Below are positions 11,934-39,362 of a DNA stretch of 39,521 nucleotides, piece after piece. Each line of letters starts with the position of its first letter. Positions within the stretch are counted from its first letter, which is position 1. Both the position numbers and the translations under genes were made by a program. Location of the stretch: sequence record SRR22947725_415; one strand, written 5' to 3'. The notes beneath the pieces are model-generated. The model did not search any database, had not been told where the DNA came from, and saw only the letters and a program-made list of their open reading frames with translations.

Positions 11934-11943
11934 GGAATAAGAC

Positions 11944-14900: not shown

Positions 14901-16890
14901 TGAGTATGTAAAGGACGCCTCTAAAGCTGACAAGGCTCTCAATGAGATCGTAAAAGACGTGAGCAAAACTGACTCCGAGAAAGCTCAGAAACTCGAAAAA
15001 TTAGCCCAAGCTTTTCAAAAATTAGAAAGAGCTCACGAGCTCAAAGAACTAGAGCAAGAAGTCGCTGACATGGCAGACAAAGAAAATAACCTTCACCAAG
15101 ATGATAAAAATCAACCAGAAAATAACTGGCAACAAACCGAAGAAAAATTGCGAGAATTACTAACGAATCTCAACCGTGGAGATGAACAAGACCGTAAAAC
15201 TTCGAACGAGCTTAACAAAGCACTGCACAATGGCGAGACAAATGAAATTCGCAATGAAATGAATCATCGACTCAATAATCCGGAGCCCCGTAAAAACATT
15301 GAAGAACAGCTCAAAAAGCTCAAGAAGGATCTCGCTCAAGCAAGAGATCAACGTCAAGAAGCCGTAGAAGATGCTCGAGAGCTCCTCAACGAAACGGCCT
15401 CAACAATTGGTCAACAATTGGCAGAACTCGCCAAAGATAGCAAAACGCAACAAGAAAAAACTTTAGCCCTAGCAGAAAAAGCTGAAGATAAAAACCTTGA
15501 GGAAGCTCGCCAAGAAGCCAAGCTATTACAAAAAAATCAAGAACAACTAAATGACAAAGTCGAAGCCGTTCGCCAAGCCCTCAAGCGTGAGGCCAATGCT
15601 CAAGATCTTGACAGTGAAGAAGGTATCGAAAAAGCGAGAGATGCCGATAATGCTTTAGCAATGCTTGCTCAAGACCCTCCCAAAGCTGAAGAGCTTTTAG
15701 CTGAAGCGAGCAATGCCGATAATGCGACAGAACAAAAGAAAGCTTTAGAACAAACAGCAAAACAACAAGAAAAAATGAATGAAGCTCTAGAGACTTTAGC
15801 TGAACACTATGATGAAAATCAAAGTGAAGAAGAAATAACAGAGTCTCGTGAAAAACTACGGGCAATCGAAGCTGAAAAAGGCATTGATAAGCAATTAGCC
15901 GAAAATTACCAAAAAGCCGAAACACTCGCTGAAGTTAGTGAAAAAGATATAGATGATCAAATTAAAGGCCTCGAAAAAATTCTCGCTGAAGATGAAGATA
16001 TGCAAAAAGCTCTCGCTGAAATTGCCAGAAAAAACTCAGAACAAGCTGCGGAAGCGCTAGCACAAGCTGCCAGTGATGAAGCGACAATCGAAGGGCAAAT
16101 GAATCAGAAACAAAATAATAACAAAGACCAAGAACGCACCATGAAACAACAAGCCAGTAAACAGAAACCAGTGACTCACGACACTGAGCAGGCCGCGGAA
16201 GCTCTGGCGCGTAGTGAAAGACACCAAGAGAGACTAGGAGATGAACAGGCTGCTAAAGAAGCTCAGCAGGCATCACAGCAAGCCTCACAAGCGGCCCAGA
16301 AAATGGCCGAAGCTCAACAACAACTTTCCTCACAAGAAAACTTCCAAAAAGCCCAAGAAGCTGTGTCTAGTTCACAAGAAGCGGTAGAACAGGCTGCTGT
16401 ACAAGCGGCTCAAGCAACAGAAGCCCAGAATAATCAACAGCTTGCACAGACTCAGAGTGATACTGAAAAAAGCCCCCAACAATTAGCCGCTCAAAAATTA
16501 GCCCTCGCCCTTGACCAGTTAGACCAGGCTAAAGCGGCTATATCGCAAAACCAAAATTCACAAAACCACGCTCAAGAAGCCATGCAACAAGCCCAAGAAG
16601 CCATGCAACAAGCTAAAGAAGCCCAGGCTAAAGCGATGGCTCAAAGTAGATCTCCAAGTTCAACGCCACCTTCTGAATCTAACTTTGGCGAAGGTCTGGC
16701 GACAAATGAACAAATTGGTGCTCTCAAAATCAAACTTAAAAATACTGAAGAATGGGGAAAGCTCCCCAAGAAAGTAGCTCGAAATATCCGCAGCGCTCAA
16801 AAAGAATCAGTTCCCGAACAATACCAAAAAATGGTCAATGCTTACTTCAAGATCATTGCAGAACAATCTCAGACTGGAGCCTCTAAATGA
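11944..16890 (+). CDS. Giant membrane-anchored coiled-coil protein (DUF4175-like) with Ig-like domains and an inserted PA14 domain
   Basis: Three N-terminal TMs, L.E.LLSAVEL, A.DDLG Ig-like motif, long Q/E/A/K heptad region, C-terminal W.KLP...VPEQY..MV.AYF..IA. Confidence 0.85.
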   Translation: MNTKQNNTTEKKIAQFGQRRRQLIFQKGIFTFITAAILSFSLIAVLDFFLFMEDWLRATLSSVVYLILAVIAYLTCLKKLMAKTSQRDLAKIFEAANPQLREKLLSAVELNDAVEKNTNTEAFNKIIQESISSELSTVDVNDILPKRLVAKRLKTAAIATIICIVLLFIPGIKFHKLMMRAVAPAANIERVSNIKIDIIEPSPADGISARGDTVSFVIQVSDPDIQNAWFEYRSNGDNAARISMQKIGDDRFQTSINIGRKNLKYRFRAHTAQTRFYELESVPRPQVIEFQKTFNFPEYSQLAPQTIKEQNGHLKALEGTVVDLKMTSDQSISRAEISIDLPGEDPKIIPLKVLNEKSLQGSVLIDRNATYKVHVTAAKSQFTNTFSPEYEIMSLADVLPSISLTQPLRDMTVTRNDIIHIQGLAKDDLGIKETYLEFKRNLDDWQRVEMSSAATKEVTINHRWDLSKLKLKGGNELTFRLLAKDLKGNEGVSSSIRLDIVNDGFNPKRFTRLRLFQNILNALNKAVVKTEQNRQLYDQKFSSLIHEKKEAKQNLTVLQIESEIQELQDFLQEQLKFISSQTLLARKNQDSDDFDLIAKVVSHLLNSRLSTTLSKMNTSENNLQERNHAYHESRSKMHDFHHRLKRTKDLFSRLIAQANADVFYKDIIQLHYEQESINAMQLTSDLESIKRRQQNLHKTYKTEKTLILKTKAVADHGTHHRINNLLKQFDEMEREINETLIRGPQKSEGVFLAEYFADSKLQIKRLQEPTDSIKLRSNNSPAKGIPDDHWSARFTGKISSPHNTNAEFYLKSDGDVKVWVDGKQLVDKKSDSKNSEIKFKYPLKANRDVFIKVQYRHYEKTASLSLFWNALKKGKRPIVAAQVEAYNYKKVLSRFNNLQRESFHARKDMIHKGNDARRELRHMLEKHGKPIQEVAQAMKELAQAKKNQDNEKIDKAQKKVEDLLKKAKQQLADKATLEEKKADADSEYVKDASKADKALNEIVKDVSKTDSEKAQKLEKLAQAFQKLERAHELKELEQEVADMADKENNLHQDDKNQPENNWQQTEEKLRELLTNLNRGDEQDRKTSNELNKALHNGETNEIRNEMNHRLNNPEPRKNIEEQLKKLKKDLAQARDQRQEAVEDARELLNETASTIGQQLAELAKDSKTQQEKTLALAEKAEDKNLEEARQEAKLLQKNQEQLNDKVEAVRQALKREANAQDLDSEEGIEKARDADNALAMLAQDPPKAEELLAEASNADNATEQKKALEQTAKQQEKMNEALETLAEHYDENQSEEEITESREKLRAIEAEKGIDKQLAENYQKAETLAEVSEKDIDDQIKGLEKILAEDEDMQKALAEIARKNSEQAAEALAQAASDEATIEGQMNQKQNNNKDQERTMKQQASKQKPVTHDTEQAAEALARSERHQERLGDEQAAKEAQQASQQASQAAQKMAEAQQQLSSQENFQKAQEAVSSSQEAVEQAAVQAAQATEAQNNQQLAQTQSDTEKSPQQLAAQKLALALDQLDQAKAAISQNQNSQNHAQEAMQQAQEAMQQAKEAQAKAMAQSRSPSSTPPSESNFGEGLATNEQIGALKIKLKNTEEWGKLPKKVARNIRSAQKESVPEQYQKMVNAYFKIIAEQSQTGASK
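16570..16623 (+). repeat. In-frame 21-bp tandem repeat (AQEAMQQ)x2.5
   Basis: GCTCAAGAAGCCATGCAACAA GCCCAAGAAGCCATGCAACAA GCTAAAGAAGCC. Confidence 0.85.
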
Positions 16891-17939
16891 AGGTAATCTA
16901 TTCCCTATTTTTAAGTCTCGTACTTATCACATCTACTTCGCATGCAGATGATAAAACTGATAAATCGCTCGCTAAAGCGGTCAACTTCCTGTTAAAGCAA
17001 CAGAAAAAAGACGGTGGTATATACGAACATAACTATCCAGTTGCTATGACATCTCTAGCCATCATGGCGATGGCCTCTTTAGGGCATATGCCGGACGAAA
17101 ACAGCCATGAAGGCAAGGCCATGCGACGGGCCCTAGACTTTGTTTTAAATGACAAAAATCAAGAAAGCAGCGGTTATTTCGGGAAAAGACACAATTCACG
17201 AATGTATGGGCATGGAATCATTACTTTAATGTTAGCCGAAATGATGGGTATGGGAGCTAACGCCAAACAAGATGAGCTGATAAGACTGCGCTTAAAAAAA
17301 GCGATTGAGCTCATTCTCTGGTCTCAAAAGCAAAAGGTTAATAAAAAGAATAAACAACACTACGGCGGTTGGCGTTATCAACCTCAATCAAAAGATTCTG
17401 ACCTCTCTATAACCATTTGGCAACTTATGGCTCTAAGAGCCGCTTATGATGCTGGATTAGAAGTCCCAAAAGAAGCTATTGATGCGGCTGTTGAGTATCT
17501 CAAACAATGCTACCACTCTCCTCGAAAAGATGGTAAGCCAACTAACTTAAAAAGTGCTTTTGCCTATAACCCAGGGAAAGGTCCAAATTTTGCCATGGCA
17601 TCTGCTGGGCTACTCGCTATGCAAGTCTGTGGCGAATATGATGCTCTTGAAGTCAAAGGAACTCGAGACTGGTTAATCTCGCGAGAGCTACAGTATCATG
17701 AGCATTACTTTTTTTATGGGACTTACTACTATGCCCAAGGTATGCACCAGGCAGAAGAAAAGTATGCCGACAAAGCCAGAAAACAGGTGGAAGATCTTTT
17801 ATTGAGTAATCAACAACCTGATGGTTCATGGCAGGCAAAAACTGGAGAAGAAAGAAATGCCGGACGAACTTATGCTGCCAGCATGGCGATTCTCAGCCTC
17901 TCTGTACAGCATCACTTCTTGCCGATCTATCAAAAATAG
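16887..17939 (+). CDS. Secreted prenyltransferase/squalene-oxidase repeat (alpha/alpha toroid) protein
   Basis: Signal peptide; QW-like repeats (FLLKQQKKDGG, LLSNQQPDGSW); MYGHGI; GGWRYQP..DSDLS.T.WQLMALRAA; Y..YY.AQ. Confidence 0.9.
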   Translation: MKVIYSLFLSLVLITSTSHADDKTDKSLAKAVNFLLKQQKKDGGIYEHNYPVAMTSLAIMAMASLGHMPDENSHEGKAMRRALDFVLNDKNQESSGYFGKRHNSRMYGHGIITLMLAEMMGMGANAKQDELIRLRLKKAIELILWSQKQKVNKKNKQHYGGWRYQPQSKDSDLSITIWQLMALRAAYDAGLEVPKEAIDAAVEYLKQCYHSPRKDGKPTNLKSAFAYNPGKGPNFAMASAGLLAMQVCGEYDALEVKGTRDWLISRELQYHEHYFFYGTYYYAQGMHQAEEKYADKARKQVEDLLLSNQQPDGSWQAKTGEERNAGRTYAASMAILSLSVQHHFLPIYQK

Positions 17940-20734: not shown

Positions 20735-22846
20735 ATGCAGATCAACGAAGATTTTTTACTTGACATACTAATGGAAAATGGCGTTCTCAATCAAGAAAGC
20801 TATGAAGCTGTCGTCGCCGCGTCACATGAACATCAACTTTCAGTGCCTAATACTATTGAAAAGCTCGGGATTATGTCAGCTGACGATGTTCTCATTATAC
20901 TCGCTGCAGAGTACGACTTGGAAACTGTCAAATTAGCTAACTTCAAAGTACCAAAAGAACTCTTGAAGCTCGTACCGAAAGATATCGCTCAGCGCTATAA
21001 TGTTATACCCATCGATTCAACCGATCATTCCATAACCATCGCTATGGCCGACCCAACTGATGTACAAGTCTTTGATGCATTGAGCCATCTTCTTGAAGTC
21101 GATGTACAAGGTGTCATCACCTCCATAGATGACATACAGGTCGCAATGGAAAAGTATTATTCTGATGAATTTGCAATAGATCAAGATTATGTGGATGAGT
21201 CTGTCACACATGTAACGTCATATGAAAATAACTCCTCACCGGGTGAGACATCTGGAGAAAATACCCCTCTCGTAGAACTTGTATCTATGATGATTGTCAA
21301 AGCGTATAAATCAGAAGCCAGTGATATACACTTAGAGCCCCTTGAGGAACAACTAAGAGTTCGTTACCGCATAGACGGCATGCTGCACGATGTCGATGAG
21401 CCCCCAAAAGAACTGCAGAACAACATTCTCAGCCGATTAAAAATCATGGCCAATATCGATATTACCGAAAAACGACTGCCTCAGGATGGTCGTATCAGTA
21501 TGCGTCTAAAAGAAGGCGACCTCGACCTTCGTGTTTCGACTGTACCGACAACTCACGGCGAAAGCATCGTTATGCGTATTCTCGATAAAACCAATATACA
21601 AATCGGCATACCAGAATTAGGCATGTTTGCTGATGACCAACAACTCATCGAACGCATTATTAATTATCCCGATGGTATTTTCCTCGTTACCGGCCCTACA
21701 GGTTCAGGTAAAACAACCTCACTCTATGCCTTTTTAAATACCCTCAATATGCCAGATCGCAAAATCATTACTGCCGAAGATCCAATTGAGTATGACCTCC
21801 AAGGTATAAATCAGTGCCAGGTTAATAATACCACCGGTATGACTTTCCCTAAAATTCTTCGCTCGATGTTGAGACAAGCGCCTAATATCATCATGGTAGG
21901 TGAAATTCGCGACCTTGAAACTGCCTCTATTGCCATCCAAGCTTCGCTTACTGGCCATATGGTCTTCAGTACTCTTCACACAAACGATGCCCCTAGTGCA
22001 ATTGCTCGACTCATTGATATCGGTGTTCAACCATTCCTCATAGCCTCGGCACTTAAAGCCGTCATGGCTCAACGACTTGTTCGACGCGTCTGTCAAGACT
22101 GTAAAGAAGCATATACTCCTACAGATATTGAATTAGAGTACCTTGAAATGAGTCGAAACAAAGAACCTGGACATCTACTACTTGTTGAAGATGACAAAGC
22201 TACACAAAGGCTTATGTCAAAGATACTGCACCGCAATGACTATAAAGTTAAAACTGCCAATAACGGTGTCGAAGCGCTAAAAGTCCTTGAAGAAGATATT
22301 GAAGGTAAAATTGATATCGTTATAACAGATCTAAATATGCCTCAAATGGATGGTTACACTCTAACTCAAAAACTTAATGATCTTTATCCACAGCTCCCTG
22401 TTGTCTTTATGTCTGGAGCCGAGCAGGATGAGATCGATAAGATGACTCAGTTGACCATCAAAGGCTGCCTTCTTAAGCCCATCAATTCACTCCACTTACT
22501 CAATACTCTCCAGCGTATCTACTCAAATGTTCTCAAGAGGAAACTAGAAGAAAGCACTTCTGATAATATTGACACACTCAACTGGTGTAAGGGTAAAGGC
22601 TGTCCAACCTGTGGCCATAGTGGCTATAAAGGCCGTGTTGGCATTTATGAGATATTTAATATTAATCCAGAAATCCAAGAGCTCATCTTCAAGACGGAAT
22701 CAACTGCTTATTTGCGTTCAAGAGCACGCGGCATGGGAATGCGCACCTTGCGTGATGACGGCATACGCAAAGCCACTAACGGCTTGACAACTATCGATGA
22801 AGTGATACGAATGACAGTAGACAATGAAGTGGAAAAATTTAACTGA
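20735..22846 (+). CDS. GspE/PilB family secretion/pilus ATPase with an inserted receiver domain
   Basis: ASDIHLEP, RYRIDG, RLPQDGR, Walker A GPTGSGKT, EDPIEY, LRQ.P.IIMVGEIRD, TGH.VFSTLHTND, Cys4 CQDC...CPTC, GYKGR. Confidence 0.95.
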   Translation: MQINEDFLLDILMENGVLNQESYEAVVAASHEHQLSVPNTIEKLGIMSADDVLIILAAEYDLETVKLANFKVPKELLKLVPKDIAQRYNVIPIDSTDHSITIAMADPTDVQVFDALSHLLEVDVQGVITSIDDIQVAMEKYYSDEFAIDQDYVDESVTHVTSYENNSSPGETSGENTPLVELVSMMIVKAYKSEASDIHLEPLEEQLRVRYRIDGMLHDVDEPPKELQNNILSRLKIMANIDITEKRLPQDGRISMRLKEGDLDLRVSTVPTTHGESIVMRILDKTNIQIGIPELGMFADDQQLIERIINYPDGIFLVTGPTGSGKTTSLYAFLNTLNMPDRKIITAEDPIEYDLQGINQCQVNNTTGMTFPKILRSMLRQAPNIIMVGEIRDLETASIAIQASLTGHMVFSTLHTNDAPSAIARLIDIGVQPFLIASALKAVMAQRLVRRVCQDCKEAYTPTDIELEYLEMSRNKEPGHLLLVEDDKATQRLMSKILHRNDYKVKTANNGVEALKVLEEDIEGKIDIVITDLNMPQMDGYTLTQKLNDLYPQLPVVFMSGAEQDEIDKMTQLTIKGCLLKPINSLHLLNTLQRIYSNVLKRKLEESTSDNIDTLNWCKGKGCPTCGHSGYKGRVGIYEIFNINPEIQELIFKTESTAYLRSRARGMGMRTLRDDGIRKATNGLTTIDEVIRMTVDNEVEKFN

Positions 22847-28984: not shown

Positions 28985-29593
28985 CTAGAGTTTACCTTTA
29001 AAGGCCTGTACGGCGTTGCCTCTTTCCAAACGATAATGCTCTAGACGGCGTTCTGAGTTCTCTTGTTGCCTTATAGTTTCACCAAGGCCTTCAACTTCTA
29101 GGCGCAATCTTTTAAGAGCTAATTGTTTATTTTGAAGCTGAGAACGCTCCGCTGAACAACTAATAGACTCACCGGAGGGTAAGTAAGTCACTCTGATTGC
29201 CGTCGATGACTTGTTTACATGCTGACCACCAGGGCCACTTGCACTGCGAAATGACTCAATCTTAACTTGAGACAAATCGAAGTCATCAACATCGCGCTGA
29301 GAACAAAAGCTGACCTTAACAAACCAATTTTGACGCTTGTGATATGGGCGAAAAGGACTTTTACCACACCAGGCAATAGTCCCTTCCCAGGCTTGCCGCA
29401 AAGAATCTGCGGCGTCACCTTTACATGACAGGCTTAAAGACTTAAAGCACTTACTGGCTCCACCATCTTCTTTATCAATTATCTCAACAACTACACCCTG
29501 CTGAGCGAAAGCTGTCATCAACTTTTGATAAACATGCCAGACGACCCTTTGGCACTCAAGCGGACCTTGACCAGAGGAAATTTGAATGAGCAT
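28985..29593 (-). CDS. prfH: Peptide chain release factor H
   Basis: LQISSGQGP.EC-type start, WEGTI.W...SPFRP.HKRQNWF, intact GPGGQHVNK, ERSQ.QN; lacks RF1/RF2 domain 1; directly follows rtcB. Confidence 0.93.
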   Translation of the reverse strand: MLIQISSGQGPLECQRVVWHVYQKLMTAFAQQGVVVEIIDKEDGGASKCFKSLSLSCKGDAADSLRQAWEGTIAWCGKSPFRPYHKRQNWFVKVSFCSQRDVDDFDLSQVKIESFRSASGPGGQHVNKSSTAIRVTYLPSGESISCSAERSQLQNKQLALKRLRLEVEGLGETIRQQENSERRLEHYRLERGNAVQAFKGKL

Positions 29594-29594
29594 A

Positions 29595-30707
29595 TTATTT
29601 CCTCTTAGTCTTATAAGTAATCAAAGGCTTCAAAATGGCCACAACTTTAATGACACCAAAGTTCACCATATCGTCTATGACAACATCGATGTCTTTATAT
29701 GCCTGAGGCGCTTCTTCAAAAAGCAGATCTTTATTCTCACAAATAACACTACTTCCCAAAGAGGTTTGCTGAAGATCTTTCACCGAGAACTTCATCCGAA
29801 AGCGCTGACGACAATCATGTCGATGATACTTACGACCTGCACCATGGGCTAAAGAATAGCAATTTTCTTCTTGCTTACCCAACGGCTTAACGATATAGCT
29901 GTAAGAACCTCGTGAACCTGGAATAAGCACTAAACTGCTATCCGATGGGGCCGCACCTTTGCGGTGTAACCAACCATCTCCACAAGCCGTAACTGTATTG
30001 TGACACATGTCCACTATACCTGTACCTGAGGCGTGAATAGAGCTCAAAAAGCGCCGCGCGATCAAGGCTCGATTCGCTCGAGTCCACTTCACCGCAAAGT
30101 CATGCTTTATCAAATAAGACTTAAACTCTGGCATATCTTCAGATAAGCCGTCTGCACCAAATTTTTCGACATGACTGCGAAGAACTAATTGCCCAAGGCC
30201 ACGAGAACCACTGTGGACCATCAACTGTAGAAAAGATTTACTTAAACCAAACTCTGAACAAGCTTCTTCATCAACGACCTGATGAATCTGCTGCAATTCC
30301 GCGAAGTGGTTACCACCCCCTACAGTTCCTAAGGCATCATCCCATTCATCAAGCTCAAACTTATCAATAAAAGCCTGACGATCGCCACTCCAAGGAGTGT
30401 CCATATCAACTATTTTCTTTACCCATTTGTCGCGACGAATCTTTTTAGTTTTGAGATCAGTCTGCCAAAGGCCCATCCCGCAACCTATATCGCCACCCAC
30501 TAAATAAGGGTATATTATATTTTCTGAATAAAAGGCAGCGCCGATGGGATTACCTCTCCCTGGGTGCAAGTCTGGCATGCCAACTACCTTTTTCATACCG
30601 GGTAACTTTGCGGTACTATGGAGTTGTTCGACAGACTTTCCTTCTATCCAATTTTGTTTTGACGCCATAACTGAGACGTCACAAGAATTAATTTTGATAG
30701 TATTCAA
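29595..30707 (-). CDS. rtcB: RtcB-family RNA ligase, PrfH-coupled type (RtcB2)
   Basis: MPDLHPG.G.PIG, GGDIGCG, GT.GGGNHF.E, VHSGSRG, HN, HRKGA, IPGSRG, AHGAGR, EEAP.AYK; TTG start with GGAAG RBS 8 nt upstream. Confidence 0.93.
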   Translation of the reverse strand: MNTIKINSCDVSVMASKQNWIEGKSVEQLHSTAKLPGMKKVVGMPDLHPGRGNPIGAAFYSENIIYPYLVGGDIGCGMGLWQTDLKTKKIRRDKWVKKIVDMDTPWSGDRQAFIDKFELDEWDDALGTVGGGNHFAELQQIHQVVDEEACSEFGLSKSFLQLMVHSGSRGLGQLVLRSHVEKFGADGLSEDMPEFKSYLIKHDFAVKWTRANRALIARRFLSSIHASGTGIVDMCHNTVTACGDGWLHRKGAAPSDSSLVLIPGSRGSYSYIVKPLGKQEENCYSLAHGAGRKYHRHDCRQRFRMKFSVKDLQQTSLGSSVICENKDLLFEEAPQAYKDIDVVIDDMVNFGVIKVVAILKPLITYKTKRK

Positions 30708-30981: not shown

Positions 30982-32499
30982 CTATCTTGTTGGAATACTT
31001 CTACCTGAACCCCTATACTGCTTTAAAAGAGTCTCCATAGCTTTCACCTTTTCGGGGTACTTCTCAAAAAGGTTATTTCTTTGGCTAAGGTCTTCCTTCA
31101 AATTAAATAGCAGTCCCGTCTCAGTCTTCTTGAGTTTCTTATAGCCACTCTTCTCATAAAACCATGAAGGCGCCCCTGAATGCTCTCCTGAGTAAGTATT
31201 GAGGTAAACCCAGTCTCCCTGTCGCAGGGCATATCGATTTTCAAAAGTATTTTGTACTGTTGCTTCACGCAATGGCTTTTTATAATCTTCACCCTTTAAT
31301 ACTGGTAGTAAATTATAACTATCAACCGCAGCTTCATTGGGTAATTTATAATCAACAATTGCTGCCACTGTGCCCATGATATCCACCTGATTAATCACTT
31401 CATCTGAAACGACGCCAGGCTTAATTTTACCCGGCCACTTAACGATAAATGGTACGCGGTGCCCCCCTTCCCAGATATCTCTTTTTAAGCCGCGAAGTTC
31501 TCCCATACTGACATGATTAAACTTACGAGTTCTTTCAAACGCATATTTTTCCGGACCATTATCTGCAGAAAAAATCACCAGTGTGTTCTCTTCTAAACCA
31601 TTAGCTTTTAAAGCATCAAAAATCTGACCTGCTATAAAGTCTGACTGAAAGACAAAATCACCATAAGGGCCCGCCTCTGTCTTGCCATCAAATTCATCAT
31701 TTGGAATGATCGGCGCATGGGGTGAAGGTAAAGCAAAATAAAGAAAGAATGGCTTATCTTTAGATTGGCGATTAATAAACTCTACAGATTTTTCACCCAG
31801 AGTTGGTAGGACGTCATACGGGTTCCAATCTTTTACCATAGGACCTGGGCGAAACTCCCAACCGCCCTCTTTAGTCTTCATCCCTTTAAGGTCAAGCATC
31901 TCAGTGGGTGCTTCTGTGACTTTATCATTTTCAACCCAGCAATAGGGCGGGAAATTTATCGTTCCATCGCCAAAGTAATAATCAAAACCTTGGTCGAGTG
32001 GTCCACCTGGGATCGGCTTACTCCAGTCAAAAGCATCTGGACCCCACACCTTCTTTTTTTTCTTGCCAACTACTTCAGCAGTGGCTCCCGGTTTCTTAAC
32101 GGGATTCCAATCCCAGCCCAAGTGCCATTTGCCAATCGCAGCCGTGTGGTAGCCCTTGGCTTTCAACATACGCGGTAAAGTCATCTCTCCCGGCTTAAAA
32201 AACGATGGTCCAAAAGAATTAACAATACTATGCTGGCGACGCCAATGATAATTACCGGTCAATAAGGCATAACGACTGGGAGAACATATACCTGAAGAGC
32301 TATGGCCATCTGTGAAGCGCATCCCTTCTGAGGCAAGCTTATCCAAACTCGGTGTTTTAATTTTTGAATGTGGATTTTGGCAAGACATATCGCCATGGCC
32401 CATATCATCCGCATAGATAATCACAATATTAGGTTTATCCGCGGCAAACAAGCTAACACATAACAGGGCGAAAATTACCGATAAAATACATACTTTCAA
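30982..32499 (-). CDS. Arylsulfatase (S1 formylglycine-dependent, Cys-type), secreted
   Basis: [41 protein letters not shown]; probable TTG start at 32499 after GGAG. Confidence 0.95.
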
Positions 32500-32545
32500 A
32501 ACAGTCTCCAATTTAACTAATTTAAGGCATACACATCCACTCAAA

Positions 32546-32594
32546 TAAAAACCCCGCAAAATGAAAAAAGGAAACCTTTCTTCATTCGCGGGGT
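32546..32594 (-). terminator. Intrinsic terminator of the selenoprotein gene
   Basis: Long imperfect hairpin ACCCCGC.AATGAA...TTCATT.GCGGGGT plus T-tract on the minus strand. Confidence 0.75.
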
Positions 32595-32619
32595 AAATTT
32601 AAAAGCGTTTTTGACAAAT

Positions 32620-33576
32620 CTATAAGTCTTGAATCATCGACTCTGCATCTTTAATCAATAGGTCTTTACCTGGAGCTTTAGTTATGAATTGCTGCAGTTT
32701 ACCTTTTAAAAAGTTTGCTGAATTAGCAGAGGCACGATCGCTGGCTTTCAGCTTATCGAACTGACTGCGTAAATTGTATAGATAAACAAAATACTTATCC
32801 TTCTTCATAGTCGCTATCTGAGTAGTATAATCTTGAACTAAAGGCATTCCTCTAAAGCTTTTCGTAAGCATCAACATACCAGAATACGCTTTCGTAGGTT
32901 GGCTTTTAAGGAACTTACTCACTTTTTCAGCTTCAGTTTCACCCCACTTATTGACGACATCAATCATCGCTTGAGCTTCTTCAGAGCCCTTCGCCTTCTG
33001 CTTCACTTTATTTTCAAGTTGACTAAGAAGAGACTTTACCGGATAACCATACTTAAAAGAATTGGCTTCACGGGTAAGAATTTTAACCTGAGCATCCCGC
33101 ATAACCATGTGCGCCATAGTTCCATAAGCCGGTTTCTTCTTTTCGAGCTTACTCAAAGTGGTGAACTGCTTATAGGTATCTTTATTCTTTAAGCTGTCAT
33201 ACGAGTAATGCATCAAAGTCGACTCTCCCCCCATATCGGCTATAAAGCCACGTGGGATAGTACCGCCTGTCTTACTGTTATATAGATCATCTTTATACTT
33301 CTGCGGGACAGAAGATAAATCAGCACTCTGAATAACAACGACAGTCATTTCTTTCTTACCAAGAGCCATTAAGGACAGACCTGCCCTAATACACGGACCT
33401 CAAGTTGACTTGAGATTCGTCTGCATAAACAATAAAGGTTTTTTATTCTTTATTGATTCTGCCTTGGCGGTCTCAAAGTCGCTCCACATATAAGCACCTT
33501 TCGGTAACTTTTCTGAAGCAGCGTATGTATTCACTGCGAATAAAAGCAGCAAACCCAATAAAAGTATTTTATTCAT
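32620..33576 (-). CDS. Secreted thioredoxin-fold selenoprotein (UGPC motif, Sec59) with a helical C-terminal region, 318 aa
   Basis: AGGGAG RBS and ATG 33576; signal peptide MNKILLLGLLLLFAVNTYA; DFETAKAESIKNKKPLLFM; in-frame TGA 33402-33400 followed by GPC; continues in frame into the 249-aa track ORF, which carries a cis-Pro-like TIPR. Confidence 0.85.
33367..33399 (-). promoter_or_regulatory. Bacterial SECIS element
   Basis: UGA GGU CCG UGU AUU AGG GCA GGU CUG UCC UUA AUG: hairpin AUUAGGGCA-GGUC-UGUCCUUAAU with apical GCAGGUCUG 15 nt after UGA. Confidence 0.8.
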
Positions 33577-33698
33577 AAAAATCTCCCTTATTCTAAGTTC
33601 ATTAATAACTTCATCTGCCTTCTTAAAGCAGGAACATTCATTCTAACATAATTTATAAGCCCTGTAAAGCTATTCACTTATGCTGAAAAATCCGGGCA

Positions 33699-33735: not shown

Positions 33736-34587
33736 TTACTTAATAGCGGCTGGCACTTTAGGCTTAGGAAAGAGTTTCGGGAAGGACTCTTTAATTCCCT
33801 CTAGGGTTGTCGGCGTAATTATCAGGTAACGCTTATTAAAAGCTTCTTGAACATTCTCCGGAACGGCTTCTTCATCGATTGTCGGATCTGGCTTCCATAA
33901 GGACATCCCGCCAATCAAGTCATCTTTAAATAACTGCTCTAGATTGCCAATATAACCATTGTAAACGCCAATCAACGGATGGTACTCAGCAGGGTCTTTT
34001 ACCATCTTTTCCTCATCTTCTTCAGAAGTGATCATCTTAAAAGCTGAAATTTTATTGAGCTCATCTTTTGAATAAGGCAGAGGAACCATAAAAATGACCA
34101 TATCGCAATCTGTATTTGCTTTGAGAACCTTGTTAAAGTCTTCGGCAGTATTCTCCATCATGGCTTCTTCTGGCATCTCTAAAGACATATCTAACTCTTT
34201 AATAGGCACTGTGCGAACTTCTGTAATCTTACCGCCAAAGCCGTCTTTAAAAGCCACTACCATCCGATCTAAATCTTTACGGTTGCGCTGAACAACAGGG
34301 TGATGGACAATAAGGCACTTACCTGAACCATTGTAATTATTGGAAAGAGTATTGGCTAAAATCATCGCCTGAGCATTCTGATAGAGCTTTTCTCGCTCAA
34401 TGGCTTTGTTATCGATTTTACTACGAAATAAATTCAGCCAAATCGCATTAGCAATAATAATACAACCACAAACGATAGTGAGTAACTTCCCCCACTCTGC
34501 CTTGTGCTTTTTATATTGAATCTGTCCATAAAACATCAGAGCAGCTAAAAAAAGCATACTGACAACTGAGACAAAAGTCGAATTCAT
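33736..34587 (-). CDS. Hypothetical membrane protein (two N-terminal TMs plus a soluble alpha/beta domain)
   Basis: Long ORF; ATG 34587 after GGGAG; no family recognised. Confidence 0.75.
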   Translation of the reverse strand: MNSTFVSVVSMLFLAALMFYGQIQYKKHKAEWGKLLTIVCGCIIIANAIWLNLFRSKIDNKAIEREKLYQNAQAMILANTLSNNYNGSGKCLIVHHPVVQRNRKDLDRMVVAFKDGFGGKITEVRTVPIKELDMSLEMPEEAMMENTAEDFNKVLKANTDCDMVIFMVPLPYSKDELNKISAFKMITSEEDEEKMVKDPAEYHPLIGVYNGYIGNLEQLFKDDLIGGMSLWKPDPTIDEEAVPENVQEAFNKRYLIITPTTLEGIKESFPKLFPKPKVPAAIK

Positions 34588-34790
34588 AAAAACTCCCAAA
34601 ACTTCATAAAATTTAAACTATTTGGCACCCATTATATAATGGCTGATTGCATCTTACAGCCCCTCAGCTGCATTTTATTGACACTAATATAACATTATCG
34701 ACTGTCCTAACACAAATTTTATCTCAACTTTACCAAACAGTTTATGCCATGTAGATTACAAAAAATTAAAATATACAGAATACAAATAGA

Positions 34791-36154: not shown

Positions 36155-37498
36155 TTAGAAGATCGACGTAATCGGTTTTCCTTTGTCGGCGATAGTAAAG
36201 GGTCGGCCTTCTTTATTCATCTCTGTATGCTTAAGCGGCAAGCCCATGGCATAAGCGATCGTGGCATTGAAGTCGCGAACTTTGACTTTATTTTCGATGA
36301 CCCTGTTACCTTGATCATCTGTCTTACCATAAGTTTGACCACCCTTGACACCACCACCCGCTAACATGCAAGTGTATGCTGCTGGAGAGTGATTGCGACC
36401 GCCGCGACTATTCAATTTAGCACTGCGACCGAATTCAGTCGAAAACACAACCAAAGTCGACTCGAGTAAGCCACGCGAAGCGAGGTCAGCAAGAAGAGCG
36501 CTAACAGCTTGATCGAGAGCCGGAGCTTCTTCCGGGAAGTCTTCATAAATACCGTAGTGATGATCCCAGCCGTCATGCTCAACTTCGATAAAGCGGACAC
36601 CTTTTTCGACCAGCCTTCGCGCCAGTAAACAGCTGCTACCGATCTTACTCATAGGGCCGCTGCCTTTTTTCTCTTTTTTGTCCTTTTTATCTTTCTTTGG
36701 ACTGACATAGGTCACTTTAGCGTAGGCCTCACGAGTCTCTTGCTTCTCTTTACCGAGGTCAAAAACTTCCAGATCTTTACTGTTCATAAGTTTTACGGCA
36801 TCGGCATAGACTTCGTCATAAGCATTACTGGTTCTGGTACTAAAACGACTGGCAAATTCCTTATTGACTTTTTGCATGAGGCTGAAGCGACTGTCAAAAC
36901 TCTTAGTGTTTATTTCGCTATCTCTTTTAACAAATTCCAGTCCCTGAGTTGGATTGGCAACCGGTAGAGCTGCAGTTCGACTTGGGAAAAAGCCGGCCCC
37001 TAAACTCTTGGTGCTGGTCTTTATATAATTGGGAATATCTGTTTTTGTTGGCGATAACTTATTCACCCAGGCGCCAAAATTTGGGTGCACTACCGTACCG
37101 CGCTTTTCGTAACTGGTTAAGGTAAGGTACTGGGCTTCATTATGAGCGCCCTGTGTACTTGACATGGAGTTGATGACCGCAAACTTATCCATGTGCTTGG
37201 CGATTCCAGGGAAGTACTTACCAATGCGGATGCCATCGGCACTGGTTTTTATCGGCGCACTCGCTTTAAAAGCATCTTTATTCGTTTCTTTGATGTCGAA
37301 ACTGTCGACATGGCTCATACCGCCTTTGACATTTATAAAAATAACCGACTTGGCTTTGCCACCACCGGCAGCGATGACGGCCTCTTCCTGAGCAGCGTTT
37401 AAACTATCGATAATATTCATTGAGAAACAACTGGCGGCGATGCCTTTAAGAATACTTCTACGGGATACTGAGTCGACTTTATTGAGTAAATTTTTCAT
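36155..37498 (-). CDS. DUF1501 domain protein (Tat-exported)
   Basis: SRRSILKG twin-Arg; AKSVIFI...GG.SH.DSFD; CLLARRLVE.GVRFIEV; GWDHH; EFGR; GRNH; AGGG.KGG..YG.TD; start probably ATG 37498. Confidence 0.95.
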   Translation of the reverse strand: MKNLLNKVDSVSRRSILKGIAASCFSMNIIDSLNAAQEEAVIAAGGGKAKSVIFINVKGGMSHVDSFDIKETNKDAFKASAPIKTSADGIRIGKYFPGIAKHMDKFAVINSMSSTQGAHNEAQYLTLTSYEKRGTVVHPNFGAWVNKLSPTKTDIPNYIKTSTKSLGAGFFPSRTAALPVANPTQGLEFVKRDSEINTKSFDSRFSLMQKVNKEFASRFSTRTSNAYDEVYADAVKLMNSKDLEVFDLGKEKQETREAYAKVTYVSPKKDKKDKKEKKGSGPMSKIGSSCLLARRLVEKGVRFIEVEHDGWDHHYGIYEDFPEEAPALDQAVSALLADLASRGLLESTLVVFSTEFGRSAKLNSRGGRNHSPAAYTCMLAGGGVKGGQTYGKTDDQGNRVIENKVKVRDFNATIAYAMGLPLKHTEMNKEGRPFTIADKGKPITSIF

Positions 37499-37508
37499 CG
37501 TTATTCTC

Positions 37509-39362
37509 TTAAAGGTTAAATTTAAATTCACTAGAGTTGATTAGGGCCCAAAGAACTTCGTCAAGACCGGCTTCTGCGCCGATTCGTTCAACATGAGCAG
37601 CCATTAGCGATAGTTCTGAATCTGATGGCTTTCGTGTGAGGACGGCTTGATAAATAATGGTTATTTTCGTGGCTACATCTACTGCCTTTTCAATGTCTTT
37701 ATAAAAAGCCAGGCGAGATAGCTTTAGAGTCTTGTAGTCATTCATTAACCGCAATGCCTGAGGAATAGTCGCATCGCGCAGAGAATCATCGATGATTTCA
37801 CGACTGGAGGAACCATACGTATGCAGGAAGGTACCTTCACGGCTCGGACTTTTCGTTTCCGAAGCTCTCAATGAAGTTTTACCATCGTACACGGTTGCTG
37901 CCTGCGGGTGATCTTTATGAAAAACAGGTATTAAATATTTCTCATTACTTTTCATGTACTTCATTGAAAATTCGCGTCTCTCTTTAACATCGCGCTTCGA
38001 CAACTCGTTGAAAATGTAGGTATGCAAATTGACATCAGCAGGCTTAAGTTTCTTATCGATCCCGAAAGACTTTAAGCTCCCCAAAGAATCATGGATTTTT
38101 TCTGACTTTAAGCGCTGACTGGTTGGCCCTGTAAAAAGGTGGTTTTTACCAGAGGCTTCAATAGTCCCGACTCTTTGGTAAAGTTTAGTCATGACGATGG
38201 TCTTCATGAATTTTTTCTGATCGTACTTTATCTCTTTCATGTAGTCAATCAGGTACTGGGTCAATTCAGGAACGGCTCCCATATCGCTCGATTTCATATC
38301 GAGTAGTTTACCGGCAATTGGATAACCCATAATGCGGTTCCAAAGGCGGTTGATAATTGTTTTAGTAAACATCGGATTAGACGGCGAGGTCATCCAATCG
38401 GCTAATGCTTTACGGGAATTAACGTCCTTCAGAGATGACTTCTTATGAGCTTTACCAATGGTGAAATCATATGTTGGGGCCCCGTTTGAAGATTCATAGT
38501 TGATGTGAACGTCATCACCATAAGGAACTCCAGCTTCGATCAACTGATTGGGCTCGGCATCGTCATAATCATAATCACTTGGCAGCTTAATCTTACCTAC
38601 ACCTGAATTGTAGATACCATCGTACAAATGAGTCTGATACTTTATATTGGCTTTATCTCTGTCGACACCAATACTTTTTGCATAGGCTTTTACTTCTTTA
38701 GCGGCTTCTTTACTTAACTCTTGAGTCGGATAGTAAATACCATTGTTAAAAGCCGCCAGCTTATAGAAATCCATCTGCGTCCACTTTTTGTACGGGTGGT
38801 CGTGACACTGAGCACAGACCATGCTGGTGGAAAGGAAAAGCTGCATAGTGTTTGAAAGGCTGTCGAGAGGCATTCTTTGGTCCCGCATATAGTAGCCGAT
38901 TGGACCATTGCCTTCCTTTAAAGCCTGACCATTGGCATTGATCAACTCGTGAACAAATTTGTCGTACGGCTTGTTCTCATGAACACTTTTCTTGATGAAG
39001 TGCAGATAGTTGCGACCAGAAACGTGCTTCATGTGGCCGCGGGCCCGCAAAGCATCGAGCCAATAATTATAATGATTACTGGTGTAACCGTCAGACTCAA
39101 AAAGCTTATCGATCAGCTTTTGGCGATCTCTGCTTTTCATGAAAGCCTGATACTCTCGATAAGTCGGAATACGGCCTATAACATCGAGATATACTCTTCG
39201 CAAGAATTGTTCATCTGTTGATGACTTATTAGCTTCGACATTTTCTTTCGCTAAAGCGTCATTGATAAAAGAATCAATTTTATTGGCGGCGCTCTCTATA
39301 TCAGCTGCAGAAACTGATATGCCTAAAGTCAACAATAATAGTAATAATGCATGCAATTTCAT
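37509..39362 (-). CDS. DUF1549/DUF1553 (PSD1-type) protein
   Basis: D.QFLRRVYLD.IGRIPT, WLD.LR, NKPYDKFV..LI, CAQCHDHP, R.ALADW.T...NP.F....NRLW, WAL.NS.EF. Confidence 0.95.
   Translation of the reverse strand: MKLHALLLLLLTLGISVSAADIESAANKIDSFINDALAKENVEANKSSTDEQFLRRVYLDVIGRIPTYREYQAFMKSRDRQKLIDKLFESDGYTSNHYNYWLDALRARGHMKHVSGRNYLHFIKKSVHENKPYDKFVHELINANGQALKEGNGPIGYYMRDQRMPLDSLSNTMQLFLSTSMVCAQCHDHPYKKWTQMDFYKLAAFNNGIYYPTQELSKEAAKEVKAYAKSIGVDRDKANIKYQTHLYDGIYNSGVGKIKLPSDYDYDDAEPNQLIEAGVPYGDDVHINYESSNGAPTYDFTIGKAHKKSSLKDVNSRKALADWMTSPSNPMFTKTIINRLWNRIMGYPIAGKLLDMKSSDMGAVPELTQYLIDYMKEIKYDQKKFMKTIVMTKLYQRVGTIEASGKNHLFTGPTSQRLKSEKIHDSLGSLKSFGIDKKLKPADVNLHTYIFNELSKRDVKERREFSMKYMKSNEKYLIPVFHKDHPQAATVYDGKTSLRASETKSPSREGTFLHTYGSSSREIIDDSLRDATIPQALRLMNDYKTLKLSRLAFYKDIEKAVDVATKITIIYQAVLTRKPSDSELSLMAAHVERIGAEAGLDEVLWALINSSEFKFNL

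What the first reader, a model, noticed from the sequence alone, without database searches (positions are those of the whole stretch)
32620..33576. Hidden secreted thioredoxin-fold selenoprotein (UGPC) with an fdhF-like SECIS, truncated by ORF calling
Seen: the 249-aa track ORF starts mid-domain. Upstream, in the same frame, lie a strong RBS (AGGGAG), ATG 33576, a classical signal peptide and a thioredoxin-like N-terminus (WSDFETAKAESIKNKKPLLFMQTNLKST). A single TGA (33402-33400) follows, then GPC, placing TGA exactly at the first Cys of a CGPC redox motif. A cis-Pro-like GTIPRGFIAD lies downstream. The mRNA after UGA reads GGU CCG UGU AUU AGG GCA GGU CUG UCC UUA and folds into a hairpin with apical GCAGGUCUG. 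Established: bacterial Sec insertion needs SelA/SelB/tRNA-Sec and a SECIS directly 3' of UGA, UxxC thioredoxin folds are the commonest selenoproteins, and the E. coli fdhF SECIS (recalled as UGA CAC GGC CCA UCG GUU GCA GGU CUG CAC) has the same 9-mer in the same register. Inference: a 318-aa exported selenoenzyme, with a divergent Trx domain fused to a Lys-rich helical domain, possibly an unrecognised PVC selenoprotein family annotated as a fragment or pseudogene.
Basis: partly seen in the sequence, partly recalled or inferred. Interest (0 to 1): 0.9.

Follow-up and report, generated by a model that had tools for sequence, protein, structure and literature searches.

The report
Hidden secreted thioredoxin-fold selenoprotein gene
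A gene that looks cut in two by a stop codon is almost certainly one gene for an exported thioredoxin-like redox protein with selenocysteine in its active site, an unannotated member of a well-known kind of bacterial selenoprotein.

Summary
On the minus strand, ATG 33576 opens a frame with a single in-frame TGA (33402-33400), then GGT CCG TGT, running to TAG 32622-32620 (318 codons).

The TGA very probably encodes selenocysteine:
- A metagenome orthologue at 50% identity (L001) has TGA-GGC-CCC-TGC at the same place. It aligns without gaps across it for 165 residues.
- Three N-terminal fragments end exactly at residue 58, and three C-terminal fragments start at Met70.
- 42 of 47 homologues have Cys at that column.
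- The hairpin keeps a GGUC loop at nt 22-25 after the UGA in both sequences. Three of its 6 pairs change on both sides.
- E. coli fdhF has the same 9-mer in the same register.
- With 61 sequences, AlphaFold gives pLDDT 94.9 and a thioredoxin fold spanning the TGA.

No Pfam or NCBIfam model covers the protein.

Not tested: the organism's own Sec machinery, because no genome is held. selA occurs in 23 of 401 sampled Verrucomicrobiota. One of them (G305) carries a Sec form of a sister protein with the same C-terminal domain.

Verdict: a real selenoprotein gene and a new member of a known kind. Interest is moderate.

The parts
33640..33668 (-). Promoter-like site (TTTACA, 17 nt, TG-TAGAAT) upstream of the gene
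   Evidence: Consensus scan, 10 of 12 matches with an extended -10 TG. The region as a whole has no more such sites than shuffles do, so this is only a candidate.
33583..33587 (-). Shine-Dalgarno-like GGGAG, 6 nt before the ATG
   Evidence: Read directly from the sequence.
32620..33576 (-). Full selenoprotein gene: 318 codons, ATG 33576 to TAG 32622-32620, with Sec codon 59
   Evidence: Translation with TGA=U. Ungapped 50% identity to the L001 read-through over 165 residues across the TGA. AlphaFold pLDDT 94.9 for the whole chain.
33520..33576 (-). Signal peptide, residues 1-19 (MNKILLLGLLLLFAVNTYA), with a likely cut after TYA
   Evidence: Read by eye. The homologues have the same kind of N-terminus. 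No predictor was available, so this is inferred.
33400..33402 (-). UGA codon 59, read as selenocysteine; first position of the U-G-P-C redox motif
   Evidence: TGA at the same aligned place in L001. Cys in 42 of 47 homologues. N-terminal fragments P0014, P0019 and P0030 end at residue 58.
33372..33387 (-). SECIS-type hairpin: nt 16-31 counted from the U of UGA, a 6-bp stem with a GGUC loop at nt 22-25
   Evidence: Folding. All 6 pairs hold in both the window and L001, and 3 pairs change on both sides, against none in six slid controls. Same loop register as E. coli fdhF.
33130..33513 (-). Thioredoxin-fold domain, about residues 22-149, with the cis-Pro-type loop I-P108-R-G-F
   Evidence: VIA-align Z 10.7, rmsd 2.8 A over 106 residues to thioredoxin h 3d21. 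Profile hit to TXNDC12/ERp18, E 6e-4, with its CGAC aligned to the motif. Pro108 in 56 of 56 homologues with a residue there.
32623..33129 (-). C-terminal all-helical domain, about residues 150-318, with no family model
   Evidence: DSSP of the confident model. The domain is shared with TlpA-like redoxin fusions P0012, P0028 and the L091 ORF. No Pfam or NCBIfam hit.
32545..32595 (-). Intrinsic terminator: long hairpin followed by UUUUUAU
   Evidence: Fold of -28.2 kcal/mol, z -5.9, with 0 of 200 shuffles folding as well.

Best explanation
Window 33576-32620 (minus strand) is one gene for a 318-residue exported thiol/selenol-disulfide oxidoreductase.

How it is made:
- The mRNA is made from its own promoter and ends at a strong terminator.
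- The ribosome starts at ATG 33576 and makes a signal peptide.
- At UGA codon 59 it is met by SelB with Sec-tRNA(Sec). SelB is held by the hairpin 16-31 nt after the UGA. This hairpin has a GGUC loop in the same place as the SelB-binding loop of E. coli fdhF.
- Selenocysteine is inserted and translation goes on to the TAG.

The product:
- After export, the mature ~33.5-kDa protein has a thioredoxin fold of the ERp18/AGR/DsbD-gamma (Thioredoxin_7-like) type.
- Its only redox pair, U59-G-P-C62, sits at the start of helix alpha-1, opposite the conserved Pro108 loop.
- A 170-residue helical domain follows. It probably holds the substrate or partner.
- The protein most likely reduces or reshuffles disulfides, or other oxidised sulfur or selenium species, in the periplasm.

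Shown here: the gene structure, conservation of the TGA, the Sec/Cys pairing, hairpin covariation and the fold.
Inferred: SelB-dependent insertion in this organism, export, direction of the redox reaction, and the role of the helical domain.
For: 1. Conserved in-frame stop.
- L001 (50% identity, 70% positives, no gaps over 165 residues) has TGA-GGC-CCC-TGC at the same column.
- P0014, P0019 and P0030 end at residue 58. P0002, P0003 and P0005 start at Met70.
- P0014 and P0003 have the same longest-contig length (68,399 bp). P0019 and P0005 share 11,110 bp and 12,555 bp. So each pair is probably one split gene.

2. Sec/Cys pairing.
- 42 of 47 homologues have Cys at the column of residue 59. 45 of 48 sequences, counting the window's own protein, have Cys at residue 62.

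3. Hairpin.
- The same 6-bp stem and GGUC loop lie at nt 22-25 in the window and in L001.
- 12 of 12 cells pair. Three pairs change on both sides. None do in six slid controls.
- The change at pair 21/26 costs an amino-acid change (Leu to Gln).
- The Gly66 codon GGU forms the loop. Gly at that column is seen only in P0001 and P0004 among the 52 rows with a residue there.
- fdhF has the same register. TGA-N15-9mer occurs in 0 of 100 shuffles.

4. One fold across the TGA.
- pLDDT is 94.9 and pTM 0.83. Strand 48-53, helix 60-76 and strand 78-83 span the site.
- Z is 10.7 to thioredoxin. The ERp18 profile hit aligns CGAC to the motif.

5. TGA is otherwise a stop: 6 of 27 long ORFs.

6. Lineage context.
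- selA is above its cut-off in 23 of 401 sampled Verrucomicrobiota.
- The family was hit in 27 of the same 401. The one genome on both lists, G305, has selA, selB, selD and tRNA-Sec.
- Its family member (L091) carries WGFG-U-PTC, with the U aligned to the first Cys of CPPC in P0028.
Against: - The organism's own selA, selB, selC and selD could not be looked for.
- None of the 10 genomes checked as the best family hits or the nearest PilB relatives had selA.
- No genome in the four samples searched carries the P0001-type Sec form: 401 and 351 at phylum level, 201 and 21 at order level.
- The codon itself was seen as TGA only in the window, the X4 contig and L001. For the other three lineages only the break in the ORF is seen.
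- The covariation rests on two sequences. The shuffle control is weak, with 67 of 500 shuffles reaching the observed value.
- The hairpin's energy is ordinary (z 0.09).
- The hairpin lacks the bulged U on the 5' arm that I recall as important for E. coli SelB.
- No Rfam family matches.
- No expression evidence covers the TGA. The 'RNA?' run X1 covers only 32936-33299 and may be DNA.
Confidence: 0.9

Rival explanations
1. The gene is a pseudogene. A Cys codon (TGT or TGC) mutated to TGA, and the gene is dead or dying.
For: A single base change makes TGA from TGT or TGC. Sec machinery is not shown for this organism.
Against: - The same stop position is kept in at least four further lineages at 41-62% identity.
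- Protein conservation continues on both sides, with no gaps or frameshifts.
- The hairpin is kept by compensatory changes.
- There is no other stop in 318 codons.
Confidence: 0.03
2. There are two separate genes: a 58-residue secreted peptide, and a 249-residue cytoplasmic protein that starts at Met70.
For: Gene callers report exactly these two ORFs here and in the relatives. Met70 is conserved in the four sequences that show it.
Against: - The Cys-form homologues are continuous through this region.
- The thioredoxin fold needs strand 48-53 and the CxxC helix on either side of the TGA.
- The 11 codons between the TGA and Met70 are conserved in frame in L001, including GPC.
- There is no ribosome-binding site before Met70 (read by eye).
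Confidence: 0.02
3. The UGA is read through, but not as selenocysteine. It could be read as Trp, Cys or Gly by a suppressor tRNA or near-cognate reading, or as Cys by Sec machinery working with sulfide.
For: Three database relatives show Trp at this column: P0004, P0013 and P0048. Sec machinery is not shown in this genome.
Against: - Trp in place of the attacking Cys of a CxxC motif would kill the redox site.
- The protein collection is stated to hold products read with TGA=W, so the W most likely stands for TGA (inference).
- TGA is a normal stop in 6 of 27 ORFs.
- A conserved hairpin at the SelB distance has no role in plain read-through.
Confidence: 0.04
4. The TGA is a sequencing or assembly error in the window.
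For: Metagenome assemblies do carry errors. Coverage in the public runs found is low (depth 2).
Against: A separate 151-nt contig of run X4 is identical over 33289-33439. L001 and the split ORFs of the relatives show the same break.
Confidence: 0.01

Closest known systems
Exported or periplasmic thioredoxin-fold UxxC selenoproteins of bacteria (the 'Trx-like 1/2/3', thiol:disulfide interchange, DsbA-like and redoxin families of the marine selenoproteome surveys)
   Same: - Sec replaces the first Cys of the CxxC motif of a thioredoxin fold.
- A hairpin follows directly after the UGA.
- Cys-form homologues outnumber Sec forms.
- The source is marine.
- Gene callers cut the gene.
Sources: Table 2 passages of PMC2398784 and family-table passages of PMC13188914.
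   Different: - No Pfam or NCBIfam model, including those the review lists for selenoprotein families (for example NF045500, NF041199, NF047660), matches the protein at E <= 1.
- The N-terminal domain is a divergent Thioredoxin_7-like type.
- It is fused to a helical domain that has no family model.
- Supplementary tables of those papers could not be seen. A member of this family could be listed there under a generic 'Trx-like' name.
E. coli fdhF SECIS (SelB-binding hairpin of formate dehydrogenase H mRNA)
   Same: UGA, then 15 nt, then the identical 9-mer GCAGGUCUG. The GGUC loop lies at nt 22-25 in both. L001 keeps the loop and its place while the stem letters change.
   Different: The stem below the three shared pairs has a different sequence. 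The predicted hairpin here is fully paired, without the bulged U on the 5' arm of the fdhF element (the bulge is recalled, not tested). Binding by any SelB is untested.
TXNDC12/ERp18 and AGR2/AGR3 (Thioredoxin_7-type secreted thioredoxin folds), DsbH, DsbD-gamma-like domains
   Same: - These are the best sequence-profile matches in the PDB: 1sen and 2k8v, E 6e-4, with CGAC aligned to the U/CxxC motif.
- AGR3 3ph9 (Z 9.0), DsbH 2ju5 (Z 8.9) and 3f9u (Z 9.6) are among the fold matches.
- 6 of 61 family members hit Pfam Thioredoxin_7 at E <= 0.01.
   Different: P0001 itself has no Pfam hit. Identity is 11-15%. Those proteins use Cys and lack the helical C-terminal domain.
CnoX/YbbN of E. coli and Salmonella (thioredoxin domain plus helical TPR domain, 'chaperedoxin')
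   Same: Top Foldseek match for the whole model: 3qou E 6.3e-4, 3qdn E 1.2e-3. The order of a thioredoxin domain followed by a helical domain is the same.
   Different: TM-score is only 0.24 and rmsd about 20 A, so the domains sit differently. CnoX is cytoplasmic and has an SxxC site (recalled). No sequence similarity was found. It is a lead for how the helical domain might work, not a family assignment.
TlpA/ResA-like redoxin fused to the same helical domain (P0012, P0028; Sec form L091 in genome G305)
   Same: - The C-terminal helical domain and the cis-Pro half of the fold are shared (P0001 against the L091 ORF, E 9e-10 over 227 residues).
- Sec sits at the first Cys of the motif (WGFG-U-PTC against WGTQ-C-PPC).
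- Calls truncated just after the motif exist: P0006, P0007, P0020 and P0029.
   Different: The N-terminal half is a recognisable Redoxin/AhpC-TSA type: 11 of 61 members hit these Pfam families. The hairpin after its TGA looks different.

Membership tests
Bacterial selenoprotein gene (UGA read as Sec through SelB and a SECIS) | In-frame UGA conserved among orthologues, with coding conservation on both sides | tested here: met
   - L001 has TGA at the same column, with 50% identity over 165 ungapped residues.
- Three N-terminal fragments end at residue 58, and three C-terminal fragments start at Met70.
- The codon was seen directly only in the window, the X4 contig and L001.
Bacterial selenoprotein gene (UGA read as Sec through SelB and a SECIS) | Homologues with Cys aligned to the UGA position | tested here: met
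   42 of 47 homologues with a residue at that column have Cys. Three have Trp, one Ser, one Thr.
Bacterial selenoprotein gene (UGA read as Sec through SelB and a SECIS) | Stem-loop directly 3' of the UGA, with G in the apical loop, conserved in structure | tested here: met
   - The 6-bp stem starts 12 nt after the UGA, and the GGUC loop lies at nt 22-25.
- All 12 cells pair, and 3 pairs change on both sides between the window and L001.
- Only two sequences were compared, and the energy z-score is 0.09.
Bacterial selenoprotein gene (UGA read as Sec through SelB and a SECIS) | selA, selB, selD and tRNA-Sec in the same genome | not testable with these tools
   - No genome is held for the window.
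- The window has no tRNA. No sel gene turned up among its 26 long ORFs that were scanned against Pfam.
- Context only: selA is found in 23 of 401 sampled Verrucomicrobiota. The full set is present in G305 and G001.
Bacterial selenoprotein gene (UGA read as Sec through SelB and a SECIS) | Selenium in the protein (75Se labelling or mass spectrometry) | not testable with these tools
   This needs an experiment.
Thioredoxin fold, Thioredoxin_7-like (PF13899) group | Match to the Pfam model above its gathering score | tested here: not met
   P0001 has no thioredoxin-family hit at E <= 1. Six of 61 relatives hit PF13899 at E <= 0.01.
Thioredoxin fold, Thioredoxin_7-like (PF13899) group | beta-alpha-beta-alpha-beta-beta-alpha fold with CxxC at the start of helix 1 | tested here: met
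   - The model has pLDDT 94.9, with strand 48-53, helix 60-76, strand 78-83, strands 109-113 and 120-124, and helix 132-146.
- Z is 10.7 with rmsd 2.8 A over 106 residues to 3d21. 51 chains score Z >= 8, and those listed are nearly all thioredoxin folds.
Thioredoxin fold, Thioredoxin_7-like (PF13899) group | Conserved cis-proline loop facing the active site | tested here: met
   Pro108 is present in 56 of 56 homologues with a residue there. The cis conformation itself was not checked.
fdhF-type SECIS of Enterobacteria | GGUC apical loop with G23 and U24 at a fixed distance from the UGA | tested here: met
   The window and NC_000913 fdhF both read TGA, 15 nt, GCAGGTCTG.
fdhF-type SECIS of Enterobacteria | Bulged U on the 5' arm of the upper stem (recalled as needed by E. 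coli SelB) | tested here: not met
   The predicted upper stem is fully paired in the window and in L001. That this feature defines the family is recalled, not taken from a call.
Any curated RNA family (Rfam 15) | Covariance-model match | tested here: not met
   No match at E <= 10 in 33200-33600.
CnoX/YbbN chaperedoxin | Thioredoxin domain plus TPR domain that can be superposed as a whole | tested here: inconclusive
   Foldseek gives E 6.3e-4, but TM is 0.24 and rmsd 20.8 A. VIA gives Z 10.4 with rmsd 10.6 A.
Named selenoprotein families with an NCBIfam model | Match to an NCBIfam model | tested here: not met
   P0001 matches 0 families at E <= 1 in NCBIfam release 20.

The most novel reading that the evidence does not exclude
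The helical C-terminal domain may mark a so far unnamed family of exported 'thioredoxin plus helical clamp' redox proteins, found here mainly in Verrucomicrobiota. In this family selenocysteine has been taken up at the attacking position in two different N-terminal half-types: the Thioredoxin_7-like U-G-P-C form here, and the TlpA-like U-P-T-C form in L091. The family would work like a periplasmic counterpart of the CnoX chaperedoxins. The helical domain would hold an unfolded or oxidised client while the selenol attacks it. The recurrent use of Sec is partly shown. The chaperone-like mechanism is conjecture, drawn from the fold match alone.
Probability: 0.15. Interest if true: 0.55.

Novelty: new member of a known kind. 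Interest (0 to 1): 0.42.

Why it matters
- **Annotation.** It corrects a systematic error. This gene and its relatives are stored in public protein collections as a 56-59-residue fragment plus a 249-257-residue fragment, or with Trp at the active site. The active site is therefore lost from every database entry.
- **A new family.** It adds a family without any Pfam or NCBIfam model to the list of marine selenoproteins. It also gives a second architecture with the same helical domain that uses Sec.
- **An easy experiment.** The hairpin carries the same loop, at the same distance, as the E. coli fdhF element. The protein may therefore be one of the few foreign selenoproteins that E. coli can make from its native gene. 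That would make a Sec-versus-Cys comparison of an exported thioredoxin fold easy to set up.
- **Limits.** It does not change how selenocysteine decoding is understood.

Tried and rejected
Searches that found nothing or could not run:
- Whole-genome search for sel genes: impossible, because no genome is held.
- Pfam and NCBIfam on P0001: no useful hit.
- Rfam on the region: nothing.
- Word-index protein searches: only P0002 and P0004.
- The search for related loci with A1 in genome contigs and metagenome contigs: nothing.
A4 then found L001.
- Earlier-findings look-ups by place and by sequence: nothing.

Placing the organism:
- MoxR is too conserved. The best match is 73%, and hits mix Verrucomicrobiota and Planctomycetota.
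- The PilB-receiver protein has at best 46% identity full-length (G293, G173) and 58% over the ATPase part (G164) among 401 genomes. No close relative is in the sample.

Looking for a genome with the P0001-type Sec form:
- 0 Sec forms among 27 of 401 hits in Verrucomicrobiota.
- 3 weak C-terminal-domain hits among 351 Planctomycetota.
- 0 of 201 in the order of G001, and 2 of 21 (both Cys forms) in the order of G111.
- The 'TGA inside' hit L088 turned out to be the gene's true stop, in a Cys form with a C-P-L-A motif.
- The G139 hit with 3 stops was not followed.

selA in likely relatives:
- Not found in G394, G139, G111, G067 or G356.
- Not found in G293, G173, G164, G101 or G062.

Other:
- The single-sequence AlphaFold model was useless (pLDDT 46.6).
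- Public runs hold only small parts of the stretch (shares 0.06-0.26). The contigs of X1-X3 do not cover the TGA, and the RNA label of X1 is a guess. So nothing can be said on expression or habitat beyond 'marine metagenomes'.
- A genome-wide TGA reassignment was rejected because TGA ends 6 of 27 long ORFs.
Full report
**1. Observation**

On the minus strand the sequence reads GGGAG, six bases, then ATG at 33576.
- The frame codes for MNKILLLGLLLLFAVNTYA-ASEKLPKG... up to ...NLKST.
- A TGA follows at 33402-33400, then GGT CCG TGT.
- The frame stays open to TAG at 32622-32620. With TGA read as U it is 318 codons.
- Under table 11 the frame falls into a 58-aa ORF (33400-33576) and the 249-aa ORF 32620-33369, which starts at Met70.

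Of 9 in-frame TGAs in the window with at least 40 open codons before and 60 after, this one has the longest flanks, 80 and 259 codons. The other eight have at most 117 and 106, and I did not examine them further.

TGA ends 6 of 27 long ORFs in the window, so the organism reads TGA as stop in general.

The gene looks like its own transcription unit.
- The upstream gene ends with a terminator-like hairpin at 33728-33704.
- A promoter-like site (TTTACA, 17 nt, TG-TAGAAT) lies at 33668-33640.
- After the TAG there is a long hairpin followed by UUUUUAU (-28.2 kcal/mol, z -5.9).

**2. Is the TGA real?**

A 151-nt Logan contig of run X4 covers 33289-33439 without a difference. Its depth is 2, and it could come from the window's own sample. 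The stronger answer comes from relatives (section 3).

**3. Relatives**

The exhaustive profile-free search gave 61 proteins at E <= 0.001. Their sequences fall into telling classes.

(a) C-terminal fragments. P0002, P0003 and P0005 (249-257 aa, 62, 53 and 41% identity) all start at the Met that aligns with Met70.

(b) N-terminal fragments. P0014, P0019 and P0030 (46-50% identity in alignment A2; 52-54% in A4) have the signal peptide and the KLPKG.Y.W.D[FY] stretch, and all end exactly at residue 58.
- P0014 and P0003 have the same longest-contig length (68,399 bp).
- P0019 and P0005 share 11,110 bp and 12,555 bp.
- So each pair is very probably one gene cut at the same codon. This is an inference from contig lengths.

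(c) Trp forms. P0004 (96% identical, 101 aa) reads straight through with Trp at position 59. P0013 and P0048 also have Trp there. The tool text says the collection holds products read with TGA=W, so I take these as TGA. I could not check the DNA.

(d) Cys forms. Many secreted proteins, mostly about 130-250 aa, have CxxC at 59-62.

In the 61-row alignment, 42 of the 47 homologues with a residue at the column of U59 have Cys. Three have Trp, one Ser and one Thr. Pro108 is present in 56 of 56.

**4. An orthologue whose DNA can be read**

A degenerate-pattern scan of metagenome contigs found one locus, L001 (1,090 bp). It is the source of P0030.
- It reads ...AAT ACT AAT TGA GGC CCC TGC AGA GCG GCT GGT CAG TCG CTA ATG..., which again gives U-G-P-C.
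- The frame continues into the family sequence.
- Read through, it aligns with P0001 over 165 residues without a gap, at 50% identity and 70% positives (E 1e-60).
- Conservation is equal on both sides of the TGA.

This excludes a recent nonsense mutation, an assembly error, and two unrelated genes.

**5. The hairpin**

Positions are counted from the U of UGA as 1.
- The window pairs A16-U31, G17-C30, G18-C29, G19-U28, C20-G27 and A21-U26, around the loop G22-G23-U24-C25.
- L001 has the same six pairs in the same columns and the same GGUC loop.
- The letters differ at three pairs: 16/31 is G-C, 17/30 is C-G, and 21/26 is U-A.
- All 12 cells pair, and 3 of 6 pairs change on both sides. None do when the 3' arm is slid by 1-3 columns either way.
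- With two sequences the shuffle control cannot be strong (67 of 500).
- The 21/26 change turns Leu67 into Gln. This is what one expects if the RNA pair matters more than the residue.
- The loop is made by the Gly66 codon GGU. Among the 52 rows with a residue at that column, Gly occurs only in P0001 and P0004.

The hairpin's energy by itself is ordinary (z 0.09), and Rfam has no match.

fdhF reads TGA CAC GGC CCA TCG GTT GCA GGT CTG CAC, which is the same 9-mer at the same offset. The pattern TGA-N15-9mer occurs once in the window and in none of 100 shuffles.

From memory, not from a call: G23 and U24 of that loop and a bulged U on the 5' arm are the SelB contacts in E. coli. The loop is present here. 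The bulge is not.

**6. The protein**

Alone, the sequence folds poorly (pLDDT 46.6). With the 61-row alignment the model is confident (pLDDT 94.9, pTM 0.83).
- After the signal helix come strand 48-53, helix 60-76, strand 78-83, strands 109-113 and 120-124, and helix 132-146.
- The helix 60-76 starts right after U59.
- Strand 109-113 follows Pro108.
- This is the thioredoxin fold.

Supporting matches:
- An all-against-all structural search gives thioredoxins at Z up to 10.7 (rmsd 2.8 A, 106 residues) for residues about 22-149. AGR3, DsbH and DsbD-like domains are among the matches.
- A profile of the family finds TXNDC12/ERp18 in the PDB (E 6e-4), with its CGAC on the U/CxxC motif.
- Six of 61 members reach Pfam Thioredoxin_7. 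P0001 itself matches no Pfam or NCBIfam model.

The mature chain is about 33.5 kDa with pI 9.6 and 14% Lys. Positions 59 and 62 are its only Cys/Sec residues.

Residues 150-318 are all-helical. The best whole-chain Foldseek match is E. coli YbbN/CnoX, a thioredoxin domain followed by a helical domain. The fit as a whole is poor (E 6.3e-4, TM 0.24).

**7. A sister architecture and the Sec machinery**

The helical domain also follows TlpA/ResA-like redoxin domains with CPPC (P0012, P0028).

In samples of whole genomes:
- The family was hit in 27 of 401 Verrucomicrobiota.
- It was hit in 3 of 351 Planctomycetota, as weak C-terminal-domain hits only.
- selA is above its cut-off in 23 of the same 401 Verrucomicrobiota.
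- Only one genome, G305, is on both lists.

G305's family member is a Sec form. L091 ORF 123-1217 (364 aa) has WGFG-U-PTC.
- The U aligns with the first Cys of CPPC in P0028 (33% identity, E 2e-51).
- It shares the cis-Pro half and the helical domain with P0001 (E 9e-10).
- G305 has selA, selD and tRNA-Sec on one contig, and selB on another.

Among the other 26 genomes with a hit, the listed matches hold no internal stop. There are two exceptions. L088's TGA proved to be the true stop. A weak three-stop match in G139 was not followed.

P0006, P0007, P0020 and P0029 (262-265 aa) start just after the motif. They are probably truncated calls of further Sec forms.

This is the usual picture for a Sec/Cys family: Sec forms where the machinery exists, Cys forms elsewhere. 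It rests on one genome.

**8. What could not be done**

- No genome is held for the window, so selA, selB, selC and selD of this organism are untested.
- The window has no tRNA. No sel gene turned up among its 26 long ORFs that were scanned against Pfam.
- No close relative was found. MoxR gives at most 73% and the PilB-receiver protein at most 46-58%.
- No sampled genome has the P0001-type Sec form.
- The window's domain content (PSCyt2/PSD1, DUF1501, sulfatase) and the distribution of the family point to a marine member of the PVC group, probably Verrucomicrobiota. That is an inference.

**9. Comparison with what is known**

- The GOS selenoproteome paper lists several marine 'Trx-like' UxxC families, and says most marine selenoprotein families have a thioredoxin-like fold (passages of PMC2398784).
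- A 2026 review tabulates over a hundred families with their model accessions (passages of PMC13188914).
- BSepDB counts 111 families (passages of PMC13326102).
- I read only the passages found by term searches, and no supplements.
- None of the NCBIfam models matches P0001, so the family is not one of those with a model. It could still be hidden in a generic 'Trx-like' class of a supplementary table.
In my data 8 of 61 relatives carry SHD1, which agrees with it. It is not independent evidence.

**10. Verdict**

The finding is right in observation and in interpretation. This is a real, unannotated selenoprotein gene (confidence about 0.9). It encodes an exported thioredoxin-fold U-G-P-C protein with an fdhF-like recoding hairpin and an unnamed helical domain. 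It is a new member of a well-known kind. It is useful for annotation and as an easy experimental case, but not surprising to a specialist. Interest: 0.42.

Noticed in passing
L091 123-1217 (-), genome handle G305: A 364-aa TlpA/ResA-like redoxin with TGA at residue 92 (WGFG-U-PTC), followed by the same helical domain as the window's protein. The genome has selA, selB, selD and tRNA-Sec. The hairpin after this TGA looks different from the window's.
   Followed up: partly
Proteins P0006, P0007, P0020, P0029: These 262-265-aa relatives of the TlpA-like form start a few residues after the CxxC position. They are probably further selenoproteins truncated by gene callers. Their DNA could not be read.
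   Followed up: no
Proteins P0013 and P0048: Stand-alone secreted members of the N-terminal domain family with Trp at the first Cys position (W-Y-P-C and W-P-T-C). They are probably TGA read by table 4, and so further Sec forms.
   Followed up: no
G001:C26:83791-89093: A compact selB-selA-selD-tRNA-Sec cluster in a marine Verrucomicrobiae MAG. The selD match is split into two frames at profile position 162, and the selA match holds one TGA.
   Followed up: no
window 28985-30707 (-): RtcB RNA ligase next to a 202-aa RF-1-domain protein. From memory, this looks like the rtcB/prfH pairing described for ribosome rescue or repair.
   Followed up: no
window 20735-22846 (+): A PilB/GspE-type secretion ATPase fused at its C-terminus to a response-regulator receiver domain. 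Only 2 listed matches, in G293 and G173 among the 401 sampled Verrucomicrobiota genomes, cover the full length (46% identity).
   Followed up: partly
window 5200-17939 (+): A MoxR AAA_3 ATPase, a DUF58 protein, BatA/VWA proteins, a 1,648-aa PA14/DUF4175 protein and a prenyltransferase-like protein, all in one direction. This looks like a Bat-type (aerotolerance-like) operon.
   Followed up: no
window 36155-39362 (-): A PSCyt2/PSD1 protein followed by a DUF1501 protein. I recall this pair as typical of Planctomycetota and Verrucomicrobiota. A sulfatase (30982-32559) lies just downstream of the selenoprotein gene.
   Followed up: no
window 33736-34599 (-) and 1463-2965 (-): ORFs of 287 aa and 500 aa with no Pfam match. 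The first lies directly upstream of the selenoprotein gene and has its own terminator-like hairpin.
   Followed up: no
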